Virus record (IMG/VR): IMGVR_UViG_3300010396_000041
Origin: a virus
Taxonomy: Duplodnaviria > Heunggongvirae > Uroviricota > Caudoviricetes
Direction: 5' to 3' (one strand)
DNA length: 64,000 bases
The position numbers and the translations under genes are program-made. This document shows positions 14,578 to 52,661 of this stretch, piece by piece. The notes below the pieces were generated by a model that saw only the letters and a program-made list of their open reading frames with translations, ran no database searches and was not told the DNA's origin. Within the stretch, counting starts at the first letter, position 1. Each line of letters starts with the position of its first letter.

Positions 14578-14601
14578 CAGAACCCTGATCTTGCACGTAG
14601 G

Positions 14602-14677
14602 GCGGGCAGGCGGGACTCGAACCCGCAGAAGTACCACGCCAACTAAGGCGCCGCTCTACCAATTGAGCTACTGCCCG
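14602..14677 (-). tRNA. tRNA with atypical anticodon arm (apparent 6-nt loop TTAGTT); identity unresolved
   Basis: Acceptor CGGGCAG/CTGCCCG, D-arm TAGCTCAATTGGTAGAGC, T-arm GCGGG-TTCGAGT-CCCGC. Confidence 0.45.
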
Positions 14678-31131: not shown

Positions 31132-31464
31132 CTACACCTCCGAATTCAGCAGCTGAGCACGGCTCGCCGCCTCCAGCCGCGCCTTAAGCACCTGGTCTTC
31201 CCAATCCTCAGCGCCATCCGGGACGCTCGCCACCACCACCCGGCCCAGCACCTCACCCTCGTCCGTCACCCGCTGCACCACAATCAGCATCGCCTGACGC
31301 GTCGAGATATCAGCCACCTGCCACTGCGCCGACCGCTTGACCTCCGCACGCTTCACCGCCTCCACCCGCGTCTGGCCACGCACGGCCCGGCCGATGACAA
31401 GGATCGTCACGGCCAGGCCGACGCACAGCAGCCCGATGGACATGGCTGCCAAAACTACATCCAT
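31132..31464 (-). CDS. membrane-anchored protein (110 aa)
   Basis: ORF track. N-terminal TM helix. Confidence 0.5.
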   Translation of the reverse strand: MDVVLAAMSIGLLCVGLAVTILVIGRAVRGQTRVEAVKRAEVKRSAQWQVADISTRQAMLIVVQRVTDEGEVLGRVVVASVPDGAEDWEDQVLKARLEAASRAQLLNSEV

Positions 31465-32456
31465 TACTTCGCGCCCACCGCGAGACCAGCACCCGGCGCA
31501 TACGTCGTGATACCCGGCGGCAGCGCCTGCTCCTCAGCGATCACCCCGCACACCGGGCACGCGCTGTAGCCCTGCTGAGTGATCTCGTTCGCCTGTGCCG
31601 TGAGCTTCGCAGCGTTCACCTTCGCCTGCGCCGTGGAGACCTGAGCGAACGCGGCCTGAGCCGAGTCGATCGCCGACTGGACCCCACCAGGCAGCGTCAC
31701 CGTCGAGATCGTGAACCGCAGACCCGTCAGGTAGTTACCGCCGAGCTGGGACTTCAAGTCGCTCGCCAGCTCGGTGTTGATCGTGTTCTGGATGTTCGCC
31801 AGATTCCCGTTGCTCGACGCGCTCGCCACCGCCGCCACCGACGTGTTCGTCGCGTTCTTCACCAGCGCACACGCAGGGTCCACGTCAGCGCAGCTGACCG
31901 CGCTCATCGCGGTGCGCAGCTCGTTCTGGAGCGTCGGGCGAACCACCGCGTTGATGAACGCGTTCCAGCCGTCGCTCCCGTCGTACGGGTGCAGCGCCTT
32001 CCCATCCCACACGTAGGTCTGGGTACCGTACGAGTCATCGAACGTACCGAGCACATCGTGCTTGAGGTTCAGCGAGTAGTACAACGTTCCCTGGATCGTG
32101 ATCTCCACCCCGTCGCTCGACGGGACGTTGATCGAGTCGGAGGAGTTCGTCTGCCCCTGCTTCGGGTCAGCGCTGATCGTGTACACCTGCTGCTGCGCCG
32201 GGTAGATGTGCTCCGTGCTGTAAAGCCCGGTGTAGGTCATTCCGGCGCCCGGGTCCAAGAACCCCCGGACGTTCTGGTTGGCGAAGCCGCCGTTGCGCAG
32301 CACCGCGATGTGCCCGCCGTCGATCGAGTCGAGCGACCCGACCGCCGCGAAGCAGACCGACAGGCCCACGATCAGTCCGGTGGCGCCGAGGACCGATCCC
32401 ACGCCCCACCGAGCCACACGGCCCGGGGTCCACTCCTTGTCATAGCTCATGGTCAA
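31464..32456 (-). CDS. membrane-anchored/exported hypothetical protein (330 aa)
   Basis: ORF track. N-terminal TM helix; S/T/N/Q-rich body. Confidence 0.6.
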   Translation of the reverse strand: MTMSYDKEWTPGRVARWGVGSVLGATGLIVGLSVCFAAVGSLDSIDGGHIAVLRNGGFANQNVRGFLDPGAGMTYTGLYSTEHIYPAQQQVYTISADPKQGQTNSSDSINVPSSDGVEITIQGTLYYSLNLKHDVLGTFDDSYGTQTYVWDGKALHPYDGSDGWNAFINAVVRPTLQNELRTAMSAVSCADVDPACALVKNATNTSVAAVASASSNGNLANIQNTINTELASDLKSQLGGNYLTGLRFTISTVTLPGGVQSAIDSAQAAFAQVSTAQAKVNAAKLTAQANEITQQGYSACPVCGVIAEEQALPPGITTYAPGAGLAVGAK

Positions 32457-32515
32457 TCCTTGATAGATGGTTGATAGGAGAAGGGCGGGCCCCCGAAGGA
32501 ACCCGCCCGTGGTGC

Positions 32516-34129
32516 CTAGAACGGCCAGGTGCCGTTACGACCCGCCTCCAGCAGCGGAATCAGGCGGAACGCCTGGTCCGTCAGCCCGCCGAAGGTGTGC
32601 CGGTTCTCACTGCCCGACGGAGCGTGCCCGTAGCGGTAGCCCGCCAGGTTCCAGGTGTAGACCGGCACCGTCTTCGGGACCGCTGCCGTCACATCCCAGG
32701 CGCCGTGGTAATCCGCCTGCTCGTCCGTCAGGATGATCACCCGGTCGTGTGCCTTGTAGTGCGTCGAGACCGCCTGCTGCGTCGAGGTACCACCCAGGTC
32801 GGTGAACCGGTCGATCAGCTTGAGCACCGAGTCGCCCGTGCGGAAACGCACCTCATGCGAGGAGGAGCCGAACTGAACGAGGTCAGCCTTCTCCGCGCGC
32901 AGCGCCAGCGCCGTACCGAACAAGGCTGCCGAGTCGGCGCGGTTCAACTGCGTCTTCTCGGAGATCCCGCCGAACATCGATCCGGAGCGGTCTACCAGCA
33001 CCAGAGTGCGGCCCGGCAAGCTCGGGACGTTCTCCAGCGACATGTTCAGCGCCTGCTCCAGCGGCCACGCCCAGCGCAGCCCGGAGTGCTTGTACGCGGC
33101 GAGGAACCGGAACGGGAACTGGCGCGACTTGCGGACCTCGTCGAGGTTGGCGATCCGCGCGGCGACCGCGTTCGCGGCGCCTTCGCTGATCTTCTTCTCG
33201 TCGAAGTTACGCAGGTTCCTGATCAAGGCCATATAGCCCATGGTCGGGATCTGCTTCTCCCAGGTGGCGCCGTCCATCGCGCCCTGCTTCCACCCGGCCG
33301 TCGCCTCCCAGGTCATGCCAGCCTTCGCCAGCTGCTCCGAAGCGTCGTCCGAGGCGAGCAGAGCCGCCTTCTCCTCGGCGTCGAGGGACGTCAGCTCCTT
33401 ACGGGCGGTGATGGTCTTGAGCCGTGCCGACGCCGGGTTCTCCGGGTCCTCACGGTCGTGACGGCGGTCGATCGCGTGCTCGAACAGGTCACCCTGCCAG
33501 GCCTTACCGACCGCCGGGCCCGGGTGCACCAGCTCCAGCACATCGCCCATACGCACCGCGTCGCCCTTGCTGTCGTACTTGAGCAGGCTGCGCTCGTTGT
33601 ACAGGCGCCGGGTCGCGTCGCCGAGACCGCGCTTGACCGGCTTCGGCATGGCCTTGCCGTACTTCGAGATCCAGTACGCCAGCAGCTCGGCAGGCTCGTC
33701 GGCGCGCTGGCAGGCAGCGTCGATCGCGCGGCGGTTGAAGCCGCGCACCTCGAAGACGGTGCCGACTCCCTCGCCGTCCTCGACCACCTTCGCGTCGATA
33801 CGGGCCTTCACCAGCTCGGCGGCCATGACCAGAGAAGCCGAGCGCATGTTGGCCTCGTTGCGCAGCCACGGGATCATCCGGACCAGCCAGTCCGGGTCCT
33901 CCAGCGCCACCTGGTGCACCAGCTGCTCGAAACGCGCGTCGCGCTGGTCGGCGCGCTCGTAGTAGGTGTTCTCGCCCACCATGTTGGTCACCGCGAGCAG
34001 GAACAGCTCAGACTTCGCGTCGCGGGCGAAGCCGGGGGCGCCGTTGAAGGTACGGCCGGTCGGGGTCTTCGCGGTCTTCACCGGGGAAGTGGTACGCGGC
34101 TTGGCGGTGGCGGTGTTGAACTTCGACAT
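32516..34129 (-). CDS. rsr: Ro60/Rsr ortholog (TROVE domain + C-terminal vWA/MIDAS), about 537 aa
   Basis: MSKFNT...TNMVGENTYYE TROVE-type N-terminus. C-terminal LVLVDRSGSM MIDAS. ATG 34129 with GAGGGGAG RBS; alternative GTG 34165. Confidence 0.85.
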   Translation of the reverse strand: MSKFNTATAKPRTTSPVKTAKTPTGRTFNGAPGFARDAKSELFLLAVTNMVGENTYYERADQRDARFEQLVHQVALEDPDWLVRMIPWLRNEANMRSASLVMAAELVKARIDAKVVEDGEGVGTVFEVRGFNRRAIDAACQRADEPAELLAYWISKYGKAMPKPVKRGLGDATRRLYNERSLLKYDSKGDAVRMGDVLELVHPGPAVGKAWQGDLFEHAIDRRHDREDPENPASARLKTITARKELTSLDAEEKAALLASDDASEQLAKAGMTWEATAGWKQGAMDGATWEKQIPTMGYMALIRNLRNFDEKKISEGAANAVAARIANLDEVRKSRQFPFRFLAAYKHSGLRWAWPLEQALNMSLENVPSLPGRTLVLVDRSGSMFGGISEKTQLNRADSAALFGTALALRAEKADLVQFGSSSHEVRFRTGDSVLKLIDRFTDLGGTSTQQAVSTHYKAHDRVIILTDEQADYHGAWDVTAAVPKTVPVYTWNLAGYRYGHAPSGSENRHTFGGLTDQAFRLIPLLEAGRNGTWPF

Positions 34130-34171
34130 GGTGGTGCTCCCCTCTTTCTGGGTGGCAGAGGGCACACGAAA

Positions 34172-34313
34172 GGGTGATGCCCGAGATCAAATCGTCGACT
34201 GTGTTAGCGCTCTACCGTTGAGCTATACGGCCCGAAGGCCATAACCGGATTCGAACCAGCAACCTCTTCATTACAAGTGAAGTAACAGTCAACATACGCA
34301 CCGGGCATCACCC
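34172..34313 (-). ncRNA. Y-RNA-like unit A with tRNA-like module (T-arm, loop-closed acceptor GGCCATA-TTCG-GGCCGTATA, D-arm)
   Basis: Termini GGGTGATGCCCGG/TCGGGCATCACCC pair (13 bp). Shares the GAAGTAAC...CGCACCGGG and GAGATCAAATCG blocks with units B-F. Confidence 0.5.
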
Positions 34314-34323
34314 TGACGTGGTC

Positions 34324-34447
34324 CCTCCCGAGATCAATTCGACGACGGTTTTAGAGTTCTGCGCTCAGTTGCGCGGAACGGGATTCGAACCCGAAGCCCC
34401 CGAAGGAGCTGTTCACCAGAAGTAACCGTCATCTGCGCACCGGGAGG
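34324..34447 (-). ncRNA. Y-RNA-like unit B with tRNA-like T-arm GGGTTCGAATCCCG
   Basis: Termini CCTCCCG/CGGGAGG plus GAUGACGG/CCGUCGUC pair around an internal loop. Confidence 0.5.
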
Positions 34448-34470
34448 TGCAAGTCTGTGGGTGCTGCGGT

Positions 34471-34569
34471 GGGAGGTCCCGCCTGAGATCAAATCGGCTG
34501 GGGTGTCTTGTTTTTGAATTGCGATCAATTGAAGTAACCCCGTCCTGCGCACCAGGCAGGACCTCCCAC
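34471..34569 (-). ncRNA. Y-RNA-like unit C (short, no tRNA-like module)
   Basis: Termini GGGAGGTCC/GGGACCTCCC pair. Same conserved end blocks. Confidence 0.4.
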
Positions 34570-34582
34570 TTTTCCGCGACGG

Positions 34583-34726
34583 GGCGTCCCCGAGATCAAA
34601 TCGGCGACGGGCTTTTTTACTAATGCTCTACCAGCTGAGCTATCCGGCGGCGAGCCGCCGGACTAGGACTCGAACCTAGGACCCTTAGTGCCTCATGAAG
34701 TATCCGTCGCCTGCGCACCGGGAACT
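34583..34726 (-). ncRNA. Y-RNA-like unit D with tRNA-like module (T-arm CCTAGGTTCGAGTCCTAG, loop-closed stem TCCGGCGGC-TCG-CCGCCGGA, D-arm TAGCTCAGCTGGTAGAGC)
   Basis: Manual folding. Confidence 0.45.
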
Positions 34727-34744
34727 CCCTATCAGCGGAATGAG

Positions 34745-34893
34745 GTCTCGCCAGAGATCAAATCGGGGAAGGAGACGTAGCGTGCTATCCATTACACTAC
34801 CCCTGCTTGTTCTGGTGCAGGGGGCGGGAATCGAACCCACTCTGCCGGTTCCGTAGACCGAAGTAGCCTTCTCCTACGCACCTGGCGAACCTC
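34745..34893 (-). ncRNA. Y-RNA-like unit E with tRNA-like module (GGGTTCGATTCCC T-arm, loop-closed CCCCTGC...GCAGGGG, D-arm-like TAGTGTAATGGATAGCAC)
   Basis: Manual folding. Confidence 0.45.
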
Positions 34894-34914
34894 ATATGCA
34901 GTTATCAAGAATCA

Positions 34915-34995
34915 GCCTGGCCAGAGATCATCATGGCTCTGGTGTTGGTTTCTTTAGCGAAGAAGTAACCAGTGCCTTCGCACCTAGCCAGGCAA
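34915..34995 (-). ncRNA. Y-RNA-like unit F (short)
   Basis: Variant end blocks GAGATCATCATGG and GAAGTAACCAGTGCCTTCGCACCTAGCCAGG. Confidence 0.35.
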
Positions 34996-34999
34996 GCTA

Positions 35000-35040
35000 G
35001 CGAGGCGGGGGGCGGAGCGCTTCGGGGTTGCCCCCCGCTC
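35000..35040 (-). other. GC hairpin GCGGGGGGC...GCCCCCCGC between the motif copy and the Y-RNA array (5' leader structure)
   Basis: Seen directly. Confidence 0.35.
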
Positions 35041-35050
35041 CCTGCCTCTG

Positions 35051-35065
35051 AAAGTAGCGTAGCAC
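35051..35065 (-). promoter_or_regulatory. conserved motif variant AAAGTAGCGTAGCAC heading the Y-RNA array/rsr unit
   Basis: Only copy followed by noncoding RNAs rather than an RBS. Confidence 0.5.
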
Positions 35066-39226: not shown

Positions 39227-39467
39227 CCATCCTCCACCGTGCGTCATAGCGCTCAGCACACCTCTTACACTGCTTCATCCGCCACCAATGCGGGTTATCG
39301 CTATTGACCTCACTGTCATACGGGCTGACGACCAATGATCGGTAAAACTCGCCGACCTTAATCGAACGAGCATCGCAAGGGTCACACCAGTGCGGCTTAC
39401 GTGCCTTGCGGACCGTCGCCTTGATCACGGCGCCTCGTACAGCTCGTAGCGCACCTTCTGAAGCCAC
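39210..39467 (-). CDS. hypothetical Cys-containing protein (85 aa)
   Basis: ORF track. Confidence 0.5.
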   Translation of the reverse strand: MASEGALRAVRGAVIKATVRKARKPHWCDPCDARSIKVGEFYRSLVVSPYDSEVNSDNPHWWRMKQCKRCAERYDARWRMDDDRR

Positions 39468-40108
39468 TGCTCGATCATCCAGAAGTCAGGCTCCTGCGGC
39501 AGCACCGTCGTAGCGCGCTTGAACGCCTCCTCAGCCGTCGCCATGAACGGCACCGCCGCCTGCGGGTCCTTCTCCACCGCCTCCCCGAAATCCCGGTACC
39601 GCTGCGGGTCAGCCAGACGCACTGTCAGCTCGCCCGTGGTGTAAAGCGAGAACCCTTGATCCACCAGGCGCATCAGATGACGGGCGTGCTTGGCCACCCG
39701 ACGCTCCGGAACATCACTGTCGAACTTCCCCCGGTTCAGCAGTCTGCGGAATTGCTCGGTGGCGTACCCCAGGTACGCGCCCTTGACCCGGTGAGCGCAC
39801 AGGAACGAGCTACGAATCCCGATCAGTTCAGAACCCAGCGGCGTGGTGACCTCGTACTCCTCCAGCCACAAGATCTCATTGACCGTCGGGTTCCCACCCA
39901 GCAGCAGCCGCACCGCCTTCCCAGCCTCGTGCAGGCAGATATCCGGGTCGTGCGAGTCCAGGGTGCTCTTCGGCACCACCAGCCCAAGCAGCCGGGAAGT
40001 GGGCCAAGCGAAGATCCCGAGCCGGTCCACGTCCGACTCCGGGGTCGCCAGCCCATATGCGGTCGAACCGACCACGCCCTGAAGCAGGACCTGCTCTCTC
40101 ACCTTCAC
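39425..40108 (-). CDS. nucleotidyltransferase-fold protein (Pol-beta-like NTase), about 227 aa
   Basis: GSTAYGLATPESDVD matches the GS-x9-13-[DE]x[DE] NTase signature. GTG start with GGAGG RBS (ORF 39425..40222 trimmed). Confidence 0.6.
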   Translation of the reverse strand: MKVREQVLLQGVVGSTAYGLATPESDVDRLGIFAWPTSRLLGLVVPKSTLDSHDPDICLHEAGKAVRLLLGGNPTVNEILWLEEYEVTTPLGSELIGIRSSFLCAHRVKGAYLGYATEQFRRLLNRGKFDSDVPERRVAKHARHLMRLVDQGFSLYTTGELTVRLADPQRYRDFGEAVEKDPQAAVPFMATAEEAFKRATTVLPQEPDFWMIEQWLQKVRYELYEAP

Positions 40109-40695
40109 GGCGCCTCCTTCGCCAACTCGATCAGCTGCTCCTGCGACACCGGCGTGTAATCCCACTGGTCCACCCCTACGTTGATCATCAGCGTGCCTGC
40201 CTCGGTACGCTTGGTTTTCCATGCCTCATGCACATGCCCGCACAGCAGAAGCTTGCCGTCGTCCTCTAGACGCTGCTCGCTGTAACGTTCGGTCCTGGTG
40301 TGATCCCCCGTCCCGCGATACGGCAGATGTGCGATATTCACGCGATCCCGACCAAGCGCGTAGCCCACGGCGGTGCCTTCGGTGTGGATGATGGAGAACC
40401 CTGCCTCCATGTACTCCCGTACCCACCGCTTCCACCGCTTGTGATACTCCCAGCAGGCGTCGTGGTTCCCGGCGACCAGGATCTTCGTTCCGTTCAAGCG
40501 GTTGACGTTGAGCAGACCAGGGCGCCCGATCGCAACGTCGCCGAGCACCCACACCATGTCCTCGGGAGCGACCACCTGGTTCCAGCGGTAGACCATCTCG
40601 TCGTTCATCTGCGTCACCGTCTTGAACGGCCGGTAGCACAACTCGATGATCCGCTCGTGGCCGAAGTGATGGTCCGAGGTGTAGAACACGTTCAT
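40105..40695 (-). CDS. calcineurin-like metallophosphoesterase (196 aa)
   Basis: GDVAIG...GNHD...GHVH motifs. ATGA-coupled to the NTase gene. Confidence 0.8.
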   Translation of the reverse strand: MNVFYTSDHHFGHERIIELCYRPFKTVTQMNDEMVYRWNQVVAPEDMVWVLGDVAIGRPGLLNVNRLNGTKILVAGNHDACWEYHKRWKRWVREYMEAGFSIIHTEGTAVGYALGRDRVNIAHLPYRGTGDHTRTERYSEQRLEDDGKLLLCGHVHEAWKTKRTEAGTLMINVGVDQWDYTPVSQEQLIELAKEAP

Positions 40696-47210: not shown

Positions 47211-47792
47211 CTAGCAGCAGCGAGTATGAGCCAAGAACTCGGCTCGCGTGGGGTCCTGCTCGCGGAAAACCCCCGTCAGCGACGTGGTCCGCATGATCGA
47301 CCCAGGCTTACGCGCGCCGCGCGTGACCATACAGCTATGGGTCGCGTGAATCGCGCAGGCAGCGCCGAGCACATCCAGATGCTTCTCTATAGCGCCCGTC
47401 ACCTGAGCCGTCAGCCGCTCCTGGATCTGGAGCGACCGCGCATACCAGTCGACCAGCCGAGCCAGCTTAGACAGACCAACCACCGCGCCGGTCGGGCCAG
47501 GGATGTACGCGACGAAGGCGTGACCCCAGAACGGCAGCAGGTGATGCTCACAGGTGCTGGAGAACTCGATCGGGCCGAGCGTGATCATCTGATCCGGCGC
47601 AGGTGAAGCGTCCGAGAACGTCACCGCCAACAGCTCCTCAGGAGCTGGCCCCGTGGGGGTCGTCGCCTCGATCAGAGCCTTCAGTACCCGACGCGGGGTA
47701 TCGAAAAGGCCCGGGCGGTCCGGGTCCTGGCCCGCCGCGATCAGAAGATCGCGCACCCCGTCGAGCGCGAACCCCTCGGTCACATGATCCAT
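47211..47792 (-). CDS. folE: GTP cyclohydrolase I (193 aa)
   Basis: ORF 47211..48026 from M79. [33 protein letters not shown]. Confidence 0.8.
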
Positions 47793-48205
47793 GCTGCCTC
47801 GTTCACATGAGTCTCCCGAACCACGCACCGAGAGATCACCGCATAGGGGGCACGCACCAAATCGCGCAGCACCTTCTGCCCCTCCTCGGCGATCATCGCG
47901 GCAACGTTCTCCACCGTCGGCCAGCCGTGCACCACGTAGACCTTGCAGCCCTCGGCGCGCAACAGCGGCACCAGCGGGTCGTCCGGGCCGAGCATCGACC
48001 CGTGATCCAGATTGTGGTCGATCCACTGGCGAAGCCCAGCCTTGAACGGCCCGAACTCAACCAGCACCCCGCCCGAAGCCAGCTGCGGCGCCTGCGCGGT
48101 CACCTCAACCCACCATGAATGACCGTGCAGAGACTTGCACTTTCCCTCAAGGTGCGGCAGCCGATGCGCGGTCTCGAAGTTATGACGCACCGTCACCTCA
48201 TGCAT
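47780..48205 (-). CDS. queD: 6-carboxy-5,6,7,8-tetrahydropterin synthase (141 aa)
   Basis: ORF 47780..48256 from M18. [12 protein letters not shown]...[13 protein letters not shown]. Confidence 0.8.
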
Positions 48206-48944
48206 CTGCCAGCACCCCCTCGGCGAAGTCGCGGTCCTCGTACTCGGTCGGGTCAATCAGTCCAGCGTCGCGGAACGCTTCGATCCGCTCGACGCAGGTG
48301 CCACACCGGCCGCAGTGCTTCGCTGGCGCTCCGTCAGTCAGGTAGGCATCGCCGTGCTTCGGAACCTGCCCGCCCTTGTAGCACGACCAGGTCAATCCGA
48401 GGGGCACCCCGAGCCGAGCCCCCTCACGGGCGATATCAGCCTTCGACCAAGTCACGAACGGCGTCACGATCCGGGGAACGTGGAACCCGTCGAGTCCCTG
48501 CGCTGCCAACTCCCGAAGCGCACCAACCCACTGCGGGCGGCAGTCGGGGTACACGGCGTGATCTCCCGCGTGGATGCCGAGCGCAACCAGCTCAGCACCG
48601 CGCGCCGAAGCAATCCCGATAGCGATATTCGCCATGATCGAGTTGCGGTTCGGCACGACCGTGGCACGCATGTTCTCTTCGGCATAGTGCCCTTCCGGGA
48701 CCTCGATCGACTTGTCGGTCAAAGCCGAGCCAGTCAGCTGCTTCCCAACCGACCGCAGATCGATCTCGTGCCACTCGGCGTCGTAATGATCGGCGATCTG
48801 AACCGCTGCCGTGAGCTCACGCTCGTGCCGCTGCCCATAGTTGAACGACAGCGCCAAGACGTCATACGTCTGATGGATGTGCGCCAAGAGCGTCGAGGAG
48901 TCCATACCCCCCGACAGCGACACAACCGCGAGTGCCCTGCCCAT
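48198..48944 (-). CDS. queC: 7-cyano-7-deazaguanine (preQ0) synthase (248 aa)
   Basis: SLSGGMDSSTLLA PP-loop. C-terminal CGRCGTC zinc site. Confidence 0.85.
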   Translation of the reverse strand: MGRALAVVSLSGGMDSSTLLAHIHQTYDVLALSFNYGQRHERELTAAVQIADHYDAEWHEIDLRSVGKQLTGSALTDKSIEVPEGHYAEENMRATVVPNRNSIMANIAIGIASARGAELVALGIHAGDHAVYPDCRPQWVGALRELAAQGLDGFHVPRIVTPFVTWSKADIAREGARLGVPLGLTWSCYKGGQVPKHGDAYLTDGAPAKHCGRCGTCVERIEAFRDAGLIDPTEYEDRDFAEGVLADA

Positions 48945-52646: not shown

Positions 52647-52661
52647 TGAGTAGCGTAGCAC
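52647..52661 (-). promoter_or_regulatory. conserved motif TGAGTAGCGTAGCAC (leftward member of a divergent pair)
   Basis: Back-to-back with 52706-52720. Confidence 0.55.

What the first reader, a model, noticed from the sequence alone, without database searches (positions are those of the whole stretch)
32516..35065. rsr (Ro60: TROVE + vWA) followed on the same strand by an array of six Y-RNA-like units, four carrying permuted tRNA-like modules
Seen in sequence. Downstream of motif copy 35051 and a leader hairpin lie six units of about 80-150 nt, bounded by the conserved blocks GAAGTAAC..C..CGCACC(G/A)GG and (C)GAGATCAAATCG. In minus-strand RNA sense each unit's ends pair (for example unit B 5'-CCUCCCGG...GAUGACGG / CCGUCGUC...CGGGAGG-3') around an internal loop. 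Units A, B, D and E contain a T-arm (GGGUUCGAAUCCC), an acceptor-like stem closed by a loop (GGCCAUA-UUCG-GGCCGUAUA) and a D-arm (UAGCUCAACGGUAGAGC). The Ro60-like gene follows directly. Established knowledge: bacterial and phage Rsr genes are typically adjacent to Y RNAs whose effector module mimics tRNA (the YrlA class). The six-unit array with two short armless variants, driven by the phage motif, is unusual.
Basis: partly seen in the sequence, partly recalled or inferred. Interest (0 to 1): 0.75.

Follow-up and report, generated by a model that had tools for sequence, protein, structure and literature searches.

The report
Phage Ro60 gene with six Y RNAs
An uncultivated actinobacterial phage carries a Ro60 (Rsr) gene preceded on the same strand by six tandem Y-RNA genes, three with complete tRNA-like modules; this is a well-supported but large example of a known Ro60/Y-RNA system, not a new kind of element.

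Summary
The gene at 32516-34129 (-) encodes a Ro60/Rsr protein with TROVE and vWA domains and a DxSxS metal-binding motif. It matches the solved phage phiLo Ro60. Directly upstream on the same strand lie exactly six units, 34176-34992. All share one architecture: a lower stem with a bulged U, a conserved GGUGCG.A / GAUUUGAUCUC core, an 8-10 bp upper stem, then YUAC-UUC and a variable module.

A stem-only covariance model finds only these six in the 64 kb window. In 35 related viral and actinobacterial loci its hits are on the rsr strand and, apart from two in phage Atuin, upstream of rsr. Fifteen of 18 stem pairs show compensatory changes.

U2, U3 and U6 carry T arm, acceptor stem and D arm, and give Rfam YrlA hits below the curated threshold. 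U5 has a T arm but no D arm. U1 and U4 are short.

A phage-wide promoter-like motif (27 copies) heads the array, and no terminator precedes rsr.

Six units are the upper end of a continuum. Relatives have 2-4, and two other viral contigs also have six, one with the same unit order.

Verdict: a new member of the YrlA/YrlB-type Y RNA kind. Expression and Rsr binding are untested.

The parts
35053..35064 (-). Promoter-like phage motif TGCTACGCTACT (extended -10-like TGc-TACGCT) heading the array. Inferred transcription start near 35045.
   Evidence: 27 copies with <=2 mismatches in the window against 2.9 expected, oriented with the genes. Most have GTGCC(A) 16-21 nt upstream and a short hairpin downstream. 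The same motif plus leader hairpin heads the six-unit array of L011. Promoter function is inferred.
34995..35046 (-). GC-rich leader hairpin between the motif and the first unit.
   Evidence: Paired in the MFE and centroid fold of the 917-nt transcript. Analogous 5' hairpins follow most other motif copies.
34917..34992 (-). Motif GGUGCGAAGG, small loop with one hairpin, no tRNA-like arms.
   Evidence: R1 55.2 bits, R2 61.3 bits. MFE -33.5, z -4.2. Positional counterpart L011:474-553.
34747..34890 (-). U2 (E): tRNA-like Y RNA. Anticodon-like hairpin CGGU-CUACGGA-ACCG. T arm 34824-34840. 7-bp acceptor with 3' strand CCCCUGC 34817-34823, encoded ACCA 34813-34816, 6-nt linker 34807-34812 and 5' strand GCAGGGG 34800-34806. 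D arm 34782-34797.
   Evidence: R1 57.1, R2 62.6 bits. Rfam YrlA 21.1 bits over T, acceptor and D. ARAGORN accepts the re-permuted module, with its native ACCA, as a cloverleaf. Ortholog L011:580-721, identity score 0.81.
34585..34727 (-). U3 (D): tRNA-like Y RNA with T arm CCUAGGUUCGAGUCCUAG, 8-bp acceptor closed by CUCG, and D arm UAGCUCAGCUGGUAGAGC.
   Evidence: Rfam YrlA full-length match, 46.6 bits, E=5.5e-9, below the gathering score of 69. R1 60.5, R2 70.1 bits. Fold.
34478..34561 (-). U4 (C): short Y RNA, 84 nt, no tRNA-like arms. Its lower stem extends to 17-18 bp with the flanks.
   Evidence: R1 64.3, R2 72.2 bits. Folds.
34323..34449 (-). U5 (B): Y RNA with a UUCG hairpin, T arm CGGGUUCGAAUCCCG and an acceptor-like stem, but no D arm.
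   Evidence: R1 59.9, R2 70.2 bits. Fold. The D-arm pattern is absent. Counterpart L011:1035-1143 has the identical lower stem.
34176..34310 (-). U6 (A): tRNA-like Y RNA. Anticodon-like hairpin CUUCA-CUUGUAA-UGAAG 34266-34282, AGGUU, T arm 34244-34260, 7-bp acceptor closed by UUCG 34226-34243, UA, D arm 34209-34223.
   Evidence: Rfam YrlA 33.4 bits. Rfam tRNA gives 27 bits on the 5' half, below its gathering score of 29. R1 54.8, R2 62.6 bits. ARAGORN calls the re-permuted module tRNA-Thr(tgt)-like. Ortholog L011:1156-1293.
32516..34129 (-). rsr: Ro60 ortholog, 537 aa, with a TROVE ring, a vWA domain and the MIDAS motif DRSGS. Shine-Dalgarno GAGGGGAG at 34137-34144.
   Evidence: Pfam, PDB phiLo Ro60, tblastn to phage Ro-like proteins, translation.
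32483..32508 (-). GC-rich hairpin GGGCGGG...CCCGCCC followed by UUCUCCU just after the rsr stop. Possible terminator or attenuator before the SPFH gene.
   Evidence: Read directly. It was not called by the consensus terminator scan because it lacks a T-run.

Best explanation
This is a phage-encoded Ro60 ribonucleoprotein module. One transcription unit starts at the phage promoter motif (35053-35064, minus strand). It runs through a leader hairpin, six tandem Y-RNA genes and the rsr coding sequence.

The precursor is cut in the 12-28 nt spacers and trimmed back to the base of each terminal stem. This releases six RNAs of about 75-145 nt. Each is expected to bind the phage Rsr ring through the conserved bulged helix: 5' GGUGCG(N)A, 3' GAUUUGAUCUC, a bulged U, and stems on both sides.

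The variable module of each RNA then serves as the effector-binding end.
- U2, U3 and U6 present an L-shaped tRNA mimic with T arm, acceptor, D arm and an anticodon-arm-like hairpin.
- U5 presents a T arm only.
- U1 and U4 present a small loop.

By analogy with the Deinococcus, Salmonella and Thermus-phage systems, the RNAs would gate the Rsr cavity and tether Rsr to host partners. These partners would be PNPase for loop-type modules and tRNA-binding enzymes for tRNA-like modules. The effect would be to redirect structured-RNA or tRNA surveillance and decay during infection by a phage that brings 24 tRNAs of its own.

U2 has a 7-bp acceptor followed by an encoded ACCA and a 6-nt linker. It is probably cleaved by RNase P, like M. 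smegmatis YrlA, to give a two-piece RNA with a free CCA end.

Shown here: the sequence anatomy, the covariation of the stems, the synteny with rsr, the tRNA-likeness and the promoter-motif enrichment. Inferred: transcription, processing, Rsr binding, RNase P cleavage and the identity of the effectors.
For: Protein.
- TROVE + vWA, phiLo Ro60 at 1.8e-27, MIDAS motif DRSGS.

RNA anatomy and covariation.
- All six MFE folds share the same architecture, and it persists in the 917-nt fold at z = -7.4.
- Stem-only model R1 gives six hits in the window. In loci it was not built from, hits lie 0-900 nt upstream of rsr on the same strand.
- The broader model R2 gives 63 hits in viral loci and 43 in actinobacterial genomes, all on the rsr strand.
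- On 26 sequences, 93.3% of cells pair against <=50% when the partner is slid, with 13/18 pairs changed on both sides and 0/500 shuffles reaching the score.
- On 61 sequences the figures are 89.5% and 15/18 pairs.

YrlA link.
- Rfam RF02553 matches at E=5.5e-9, 3.7e-5 and 0.13.
- The units show the YUAY motif, the UA linker between acceptor and D arm, GG in the D loop, UUCRA in the T loop, and R15:Y48 in U3 and U6 (searches compared).
- ARAGORN accepts the Y-stem-excised, re-permuted U2, U3 and U6 as cloverleaf tRNAs and rejects the native units.

Transcription unit.
- The motif is enriched and oriented.
- No promoter motif and no terminator call lie between the array and rsr.
- The same promoter-leader-six-unit layout occurs in L011, with positional orthology of U1, U2, U5 and U6.

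Precedents.
- Phage phiLo Ro60 binds two upstream Yrl RNAs and host PNPase (PMC12135203).
Against: - No expression, end-mapping or binding data exist for this locus.
- None of the units reaches Rfam's YrlA gathering score (best 46.6 against 69), and none does in 18 related loci.
- The 5' motif is GUGCG(N)AGG rather than the published GNCGAA(N)G. Only U1 contains CGAA.
- The promoter is inferred from motif enrichment only. The sigma-70 consensus scan found nothing, and this copy has a weak -35-like element.
- U5's lower stem is not in the MFE of the full transcript.
- No PNPase, RtcB or other obvious partner gene lies next to the locus.
- The covariation alignments were fitted to the model structure.
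Confidence: 0.85

Rival explanations
1. The six units act mainly in cis, as a structured 5' UTR of the rsr mRNA. They would serve, for example, as Rsr autoregulatory binding sites or as stabilisers, rather than as stable trans-acting Y RNAs.
For: The array sits between the promoter motif and the rsr start with no intervening promoter motif or terminator call. A possible hairpin CCCUCU...AGAGGG overlaps the Shine-Dalgarno sequence (read).
Against: In Arthrobacter phage Atuin, two units lie downstream of rsr. M. smegmatis, Salmonella and phiLo homologous arrangements yield discrete RNAs that bind Rsr. Complete and conserved tRNA-like modules are not needed for a cis site. Positional orthology of distinct module types between the window and L011 argues for individual functions.
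Confidence: 0.07
2. The units are decaying tRNA-derived repeats, that is pseudogenes left by rearrangement of the phage tRNA arrays, with no function of their own.
For: Related phages embed rsr inside tRNA arrays. The 5' half of U6 scores 27 bits against Rfam tRNA. The re-permuted modules are generically tRNA-like, at identity scores of 0.66-0.72 to the phage's tRNAs.
Against: Fifteen of 18 stem pairs carry compensatory changes across 61 sequences. The non-tRNA core motifs are conserved from Streptomyces chromosomes to phages. Linkage to rsr, and its strand, is strict. No specific parent tRNA exists in the window.
Confidence: 0.03
3. U2, U3 and U6 are functional circularly permuted or split tRNA genes used in translation.
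For: All four arms are present. U2 has a 7-bp acceptor with encoded ACCA.
Against: The acceptors of U3 and U6 are closed by tetraloops. A 25-30-bp Y stem interrupts the D/anticodon junction. The 'anticodon' differs between orthologous units: UGU in U6 against GCU in L011 unit 6. ARAGORN and Rfam tRNA reject the native sequences.
Confidence: 0.02

Closest known systems
Mycobacterium smegmatis YrlA and YrlB (Chen et al. 2014, PMC4201824)
   Same: Y RNAs encoded just 5' of rsr on the same strand. One is tRNA-like (T arm, D arm, 7-bp acceptor that is cut by RNase P and receives CCA). One is a smaller RNA that keeps a T arm. From the published probe, the sequence UUACCACUUCUAAUGG matches the UUACUUC block and the 7-nt CU-NNN-AA hairpin seen here.
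   Different: Two RNAs there, six here. The locus here is phage-borne, headed by a phage promoter motif, and mixes three full mimics, one T-arm-only unit and two short units. Binding and processing are shown there and only inferred here.
Salmonella Typhimurium YrlA (Rfam RF02553; crystal structure 6CU1, bioRxiv 10.1101/312249)
   Same: Circularly permuted tRNA mimic with a closed acceptor stem, T and D arms, the UA linker and a Levitt pair. The stem to the Rsr-binding module takes the place of the anticodon stem. U3 aligns full length to the family model.
   Different: All units score below the family threshold. The Salmonella RNA lacks any anticodon-loop-like hairpin. The Rsr motif there is GNCGAA(N)G against GUGCG(N)AGG here. 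The Salmonella gene is in an RtcR-controlled rsr-rtcBA operon; no rtcB or rtcA is present here.
Thermus phage phiLo Ro60 with Yrl1 and Yrl2 (PMC12135203, 2025)
   Same: Phage-encoded Ro60 with Y-like RNAs directly upstream. It is the best solved-structure match of this protein. The proposed role is capture of host PNPase.
   Different: Two RNAs there, identified by their CGAA motif and stem-bulge-stem shape, with no tRNA-like module described in the passages read. The protein similarity is distant: tblastn gives 26.6% identity.
YrlA-like RNAs of mycobacteriophages (e.g. ET08; 22 phages in Chen et al. 2014)
   Same: Precedent that actinobacteriophages with rsr carry YrlA-type RNAs within 4 kb on the same strand.
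   Different: The numbers per phage could not be read because the supplementary tables are not held. The Rsr protein here is closest to those of Streptomyces, Gordonia and Arthrobacter phages, and Mycobacterium is not among the commonly matched organisms.
Deinococcus radiodurans Yrn1, Yrn2 and small RNAs a-d upstream of rsr
   Same: Several small RNAs are encoded upstream of rsr, and the Y RNA tethers Rsr to PNPase.
   Different: A different lineage of Y RNA, with the T and D elements in a different orientation and both strands of the metazoan-like Ro-binding helix retained.

Membership tests
Ro60/Rsr protein | TROVE (HEAT-repeat ring) domain followed by a vWA domain with a MIDAS motif | tested here: met
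   Pfam TROVE 51.6 bits (cutoff 23) and VWA_2 28.3 bits (cutoff 27). DRSGS motif in the translation. phiLo Ro60 9KOP at E=1.8e-27.
YrlA-type Y RNA (Chen 2014; Rfam RF02553) | Encoded within 4 kb of rsr on the same strand | tested here: met
   All six units lie 47-863 nt upstream of the rsr ATG on the minus strand.
YrlA-type Y RNA (Chen 2014; Rfam RF02553) | 5' and 3' ends pair into a long stem carrying a conserved Ro-binding-like motif near the 5' end (GNCGAA(N)G, resembling the metazoan GGUCCGA) | tested here: inconclusive
   The stem is present and covaries. The motif is GGUGCG(A/C/U)AGG, which matches GGUCCGAAGG at 8-9 of 10 positions. It fits the published GNCGAA string only loosely, and only U1 has CGAA.
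YrlA-type Y RNA (Chen 2014; Rfam RF02553) | Conserved T stem-loop and D stem-loop with an acceptor-like stem-loop between them, plus YUAY before the V region and the UA linker | tested here: met
   Met for U2, U3 and U6. U5 has the T arm and an acceptor-like stem only. U1 and U4 have none, so they are YrlB-like or generic Y RNAs rather than YrlA.
YrlA-type Y RNA (Chen 2014; Rfam RF02553) | Score at or above Rfam's gathering threshold (69 bits) | tested here: not met
   Best scores are 46.6 (U3), 33.4 (U6) and 21.1 (U2) bits. No unit in 18 related loci reaches the threshold either. The whole actinophage/actinobacterial subgroup sampled here sits below it.
YrlA-type Y RNA (Chen 2014; Rfam RF02553) | Stable RNA bound by Rsr in vivo, carrying tRNA modifications (pseudouridine 55, dihydrouridine) | not testable with these tools
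   Needs RNA-seq or northern blots, Rsr immunoprecipitation and modification mapping.
Canonical tRNA gene | Recognised as a contiguous cloverleaf by tRNA finders at their thresholds | tested here: not met
   ARAGORN finds none in 34176-34992. Rfam tRNA at its gathering score finds none there; the best sub-threshold hit is 27 bits against 29.

The most novel reading that the evidence does not exclude
The array is a panel of near-complete tRNA mimics deployed by the phage in the conflict over tRNAs. Each full unit carries an acceptor, D arm, T arm and an anticodon-arm-like hairpin: 5 bp, a 7-nt loop of the form YU-NNN-RA, consensus CUGYUAA. U2 may expose a CCA end after RNase P cleavage.

Bound to phage Rsr, the mimics could work in either of two ways. 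They could decoy host tRNA-targeting defence nucleases or tRNA-modifying enzymes. Or they could steer Rsr with an exonuclease onto damaged or host tRNAs while the phage's own 24 tRNAs take over translation. Different units would address different partners.

A related evolutionary reading is that these units are near-intact fossils of the proposed origin of Y RNAs from dimeric tRNA transcripts.
Probability: 0.1. Interest if true: 0.8.

Novelty: new member of a known kind. Interest (0 to 1): 0.42.

Why it matters
Ro60/Y-RNA particles are conserved from bacteria to humans, yet the effectors that bind the tRNA-like end of bacterial Y RNAs are still unknown.

A phage that keeps six distinct Y RNAs offers a compact natural panel for pull-downs and genetics. 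The panel holds three full tRNA mimics, one T-arm-only form and two minimal forms. Their order is shared with a related phage.

The analysis also has three practical consequences.
- Tandem Y-RNA arrays are the rule next to rsr in actinobacteria and their phages.
- The curated Rfam threshold misses all of them.
- Several deposited phage genomes label parts of them as tRNAs or small proteins.

Tried and rejected
Searches that gave nothing useful.
- Megablast of the locus against 50,697 phage records gave no match, so no annotated near-relative could be used.
- Rfam at gathering thresholds returned only tRNAs, both in the window and in 18 related loci.
- ARAGORN found nothing in the native units.
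- The sigma-70 and terminator consensus scan found no promoter. Its only 'terminator' in the array is the U1 stem itself.
- The supplementary tables of Chen et al. 2014, which give the number of YrlAs per phage, are not held. Two reviews are also not held.
- Literature searches for Y RNAs in actinobacteriophages or Streptomyces found nothing.
- Pfam and PHROGs on about 30 neighbouring ORFs found no PNPase, RtcB/RtcA or RNA ligase. They found only an SPFH protein downstream and an RlaP-family nucleotidyltransferase 4.4 kb upstream.
- Looking for a parent tRNA among the phage's 24 tRNAs found none. Similarity is no higher than between the tRNAs themselves.

Explanations considered and rejected.
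- Small ORFs overlapping the units (34334-34552 and 34685-34840). They have no Shine-Dalgarno sequence, and the conservation pattern is that of paired RNA.
- REP-like or terminator repeats.
- Genuine tRNA genes.

Method note. The first search model (R1) used synthetic AAAA loops in place of the modules. It served only for detection.
Full report
**What is there**

The window is 63-68% G+C, phage-like DNA. It encodes a portal protein, a large terminase, 24 tRNAs and 7-deazaguanine genes. No phage record matches the locus at the DNA level. The terminase is less than 50% identical to anything in the phage collection.

On the minus strand, 32516-34129 encodes a 537-aa protein. Pfam gives a TROVE domain (E=1.1e-13) and a vWA domain (E=2.8e-6). 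The protein has a DRSGS MIDAS motif. It matches the crystal and cryo-EM chains of Thermus phage phiLo Ro60 at E=1.8e-27. It is 41-51% identical to 'Ro-like RNA binding protein' genes of Streptomyces, Gordonia and Arthrobacter phages.

**The six units**

Upstream in gene sense, the repeat finder recovers six copies of the GAGATCAAATCG block. It also recovers five copies plus one variant of the GAAGTAAC...CGCACC block.

Read as minus-strand RNA, every unit has the following layout:
- a lower stem;
- GGUGCG(N)A;
- an upper stem of 8-10 bp;
- (Y)UAC-UUC;
- a variable module;
- the upper-stem 3' strand;
- GAUUUGAUCUC;
- the lower-stem 3' strand.

Folded separately, all six give the same minimum-energy shape. 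It has a 7-10 bp lower stem with a bulged U on the 3' side. Next come a 2x2 loop (UG/AU), two pairs (CG/UG), an asymmetric loop, and then the upper stem. Five of the six keep this fold when the whole 917-nt putative transcript is folded (z = -7.4).

I call the units U1 to U6 in transcript order:

| Unit | Coordinates |
|---|---|
| U1 | 34917-34992 |
| U2 | 34747-34890 |
| U3 | 34585-34727 |
| U4 | 34478-34561 |
| U5 | 34323-34449 |
| U6 | 34176-34310 |

**More than chance**

I built a covariance model of the stem only (R1). It finds exactly these six in 64 kb. That result alone is circular, because the model came from them.

The independent test is on other loci.
- In 11 IMG/VR loci retrieved through the protein, every hit at E below 1e-4 lies upstream of rsr on the same strand.
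- A second model built from those hits (R2) finds 63 units in 19 viral sources and 43 units in 17 actinobacterial genome loci. All are on the rsr strand. All are upstream except two in phage Atuin.

Covariation supports the stems.
- On 26 sequences, 93.3% of cells form pairs, against 36-50% when the partner column is slid. Thirteen of 18 pairs change on both sides, and no shuffle out of 500 reaches the observed score.
- On 61 sequences the figures are 89.5% and 15 of 18 pairs.

The alignments are model-fitted, which favours the structure. The slid controls and the many pair types (up to six per position) still make a chance origin untenable.

**The modules**

- U3 aligns end to end to Rfam YrlA: 46.6 bits, E=5.5e-9 in a 1.2-kb search.
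- U6 gives 33.4 bits and U2 gives 21.1 bits, both over the T-acceptor-D core. All three are below the curated threshold of 69.

U2, U3 and U6 have the features listed for YrlA by Chen et al. 2014 and Wang et al. 2018:
- a UUCRA T loop;
- a GG-containing D loop;
- the UA dinucleotide between acceptor and D arm;
- the YUAY motif;
- an R15:Y48 combination in U3 and U6.

U5 has a T arm and an acceptor-like stem but no D arm. This resembles what was reported for M. smegmatis YrlB. U1 and U4 have none of these elements. So three units, not four, carry a complete tRNA-like module.

U2 is special. Its 7-bp acceptor 3' strand is followed by an encoded ACCA and a 6-nt linker. [quoted passage not shown] The orthologous unit of L011 has ACC at the same place.

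**An extra observation on the 'V' hairpin**

The hairpin between YUAC and the T arm is called V (variable arm) in the literature. In U6 it is CUUCA-CUUGUAA-UGAAG followed by AGGUU. That is the geometry of an anticodon arm plus a class-I variable loop.

If the Y stem is excised and the module is re-opened at the acceptor loop, ARAGORN accepts three units as ordinary cloverleaves. It calls U6 tRNA-Thr(tgt)-like and U2 Arg(acg)-like. U3 passes more weakly. It rejects all the native sequences. I chose the cut points, so this shows compatibility and is not a statistical test.

Across 61 distinct T-loop-bearing units, 42 have a 5-bp stem with a 7-nt loop ending 4-5 nt before the T stem.
- U is at loop position 2 in 36 of 42.
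- A purine is at position 6 in 37 of 42.
- The recurrent loop is CUGYUAA.

The 'anticodon' is not conserved between orthologous units. The modules are no closer to any one of the phage's tRNAs than those tRNAs are to each other. This fits the published idea that YrlA arose from dimeric tRNA transcripts. It also explains why annotators have called tRNAs inside such units.

**Transcription unit**

The motif TGCTACGCTACT occurs 27 times with two or fewer mismatches, against 2.9 expected. It is almost always oriented with the genes. It usually has GTGCC(A) 16-21 nt upstream and a short hairpin plus ribosome-binding site downstream. It reads as an extended -10 (TGc-TACGCT).

The copy at 35053-35064 is followed by a longer hairpin and the six units instead of a ribosome-binding site. 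No further motif copy and no terminator call lie before rsr. Co-transcription of the array and rsr is therefore the simplest reading, but it is inferred.

The closest relative is L011, whose Rsr is 74% identical. It has the same motif, a leader hairpin and six units. U1, U2, U5 and U6 find their best match at the same rank in L011.

**How unusual is six?**

Counts with model R2, supplemented by a pattern search for LuckySocke:

| Group | Units per locus |
|---|---|
| Most Streptomyces and other actinobacterial loci | 2-3 |
| Nonomuraea, Actinomadura and Peterkaempfera loci | 4 |
| LuckySocke | about 5 (R2 plus pattern search) |
| VanLee | 2-4 (two with E below 0.01) |
| Rabbitrun, Atuin | 3 |
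| Kela | 3, weak hits only (E 0.05-0.4) |
| Window, L011, L012 | 6 |

L012 has a divergent Rsr (45% identical) and a different 5' block, so large arrays exist in at least two lineages. Six is the top of a continuum rather than a singular feature.

**Comparison with what is known, and verdict**

Y RNAs next to phage rsr genes have been known since 2014: 355 putative YrlAs in 254 bacteria and 22 phages. A phage Ro60 with two upstream Y-like RNAs has been characterised structurally.

The present locus is a new, well-supported member of that kind. It is distinguished by the number and diversity of its units, by its own phage promoter, and by falling below the Rfam threshold.

I found no paper in the searchable library that describes such arrays in actinobacteriophages. 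The key supplementary tables were not available.

Function beyond 'Rsr-bound Y RNAs' is inference by analogy: gating of Rsr, and tethering to PNPase or to tRNA-binding proteins. No partner gene is adjacent. The nearest RNA-related gene is an RlaP-family nucleotidyltransferase 4.4 kb upstream.

Noticed in passing
window, 27 sites, e.g. 9551(+), 23157(-), 25059(-), 26757(-), 30956(-), 35053(-), 46118(-), 52649(-), 52707(+), 58075(+): Phage-wide promoter-like module. It consists of GTGCC(A), about 16 nt, then TGCTACGCTACT(CA). Most copies are followed by a short hairpin, often with a GAGA-type loop, and then a ribosome-binding site. There are 27 copies against 2.9 expected, oriented with the genes. 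A divergent pair sits at 52649(-)/52707(+).
   Followed up: partly
L001:2774-2847 (LuckySocke gene 36), L018:2769-2843 (GiJojo gene 29), L003:2707-2778 (VanLee gene 125): Deposited annotations call tRNA-Ser(gct), tRNA-Arg(cct) and tRNA-Arg(tct) immediately upstream of the Ro-like gene. None reaches the Rfam tRNA gathering score. The LuckySocke and VanLee calls fall inside listed Y-unit hits of model R2. The GiJojo call sits at the position equivalent to LuckySocke's, but no R2 hit is listed there. They look like Y-RNA 5' halves (Y-stem strand, anticodon-like hairpin, T arm, acceptor 3' strand) misread as tRNAs.
   Followed up: partly
L016:2421-2778 (Gordonia phage Rabbitrun gp93, gp94): Two small 'hypothetical protein' CDSs overlap three Y-unit hits (2478-2595, 2601-2678, 2686-2883) upstream of the Ro-like gene. 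They are probably over-called ORFs across a Y-RNA array.
   Followed up: no
42 of 61 T-loop-bearing units in the window and L001-L035; e.g. window 34266-34282: The 'V' hairpin of this Y-RNA subgroup has anticodon-arm geometry: 5 bp, a 7-nt loop with U at position 2 and a purine at position 6, and the recurrent loop CUGYUAA. It is followed by a 4-5-nt AGGUY-type variable loop.
   Followed up: partly
window 39425-40222 (-): RlaP-family (RNA-repair-associated, DNA polymerase beta-like) nucleotidyltransferase. Pfam E=1.4e-18; PHROG 388 E=1.5e-30. It lies 4.4 kb upstream of the Y array. Its neighbours have no family match.
   Followed up: no
window 47211-48026 (-) and 48198-48944 (-): GTP cyclohydrolase I (FolE, E=1.5e-55) and QueC (E=6.1e-58). 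These are 7-deazaguanine (preQ0) pathway genes, as used by phages for DNA modification.
   Followed up: no
window 31464-32456 (-): An SPFH/Band 7 family protein (E=1.3e-15) is encoded directly downstream of rsr. No promoter motif lies between them, so it may share the transcript.
   Followed up: no
window 14600-14677 (-): ARAGORN reports a tRNA with an undetermined identity and a two-base 'anticodon' (ag). Rfam tRNA scores it at 49 bits. The anticodon loop is unusual.
   Followed up: no
window 34478-34561 and 34176-34310 with flanks: In the 917-nt fold, the lower stems of U4 and U6 extend into the spacers, to about 17-18 bp and 13 bp. These long duplexes could be processing sites for a double-strand-specific nuclease.
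   Followed up: no
L017:2229-2981 (Streptomyces phage Kela gene 137): An annotated RNA ligase gene sits between three weak Y-unit hits (1729-2148) and the Ro-like gene. This links the phage Ro/Y module to RNA repair in that lineage.
   Followed up: no
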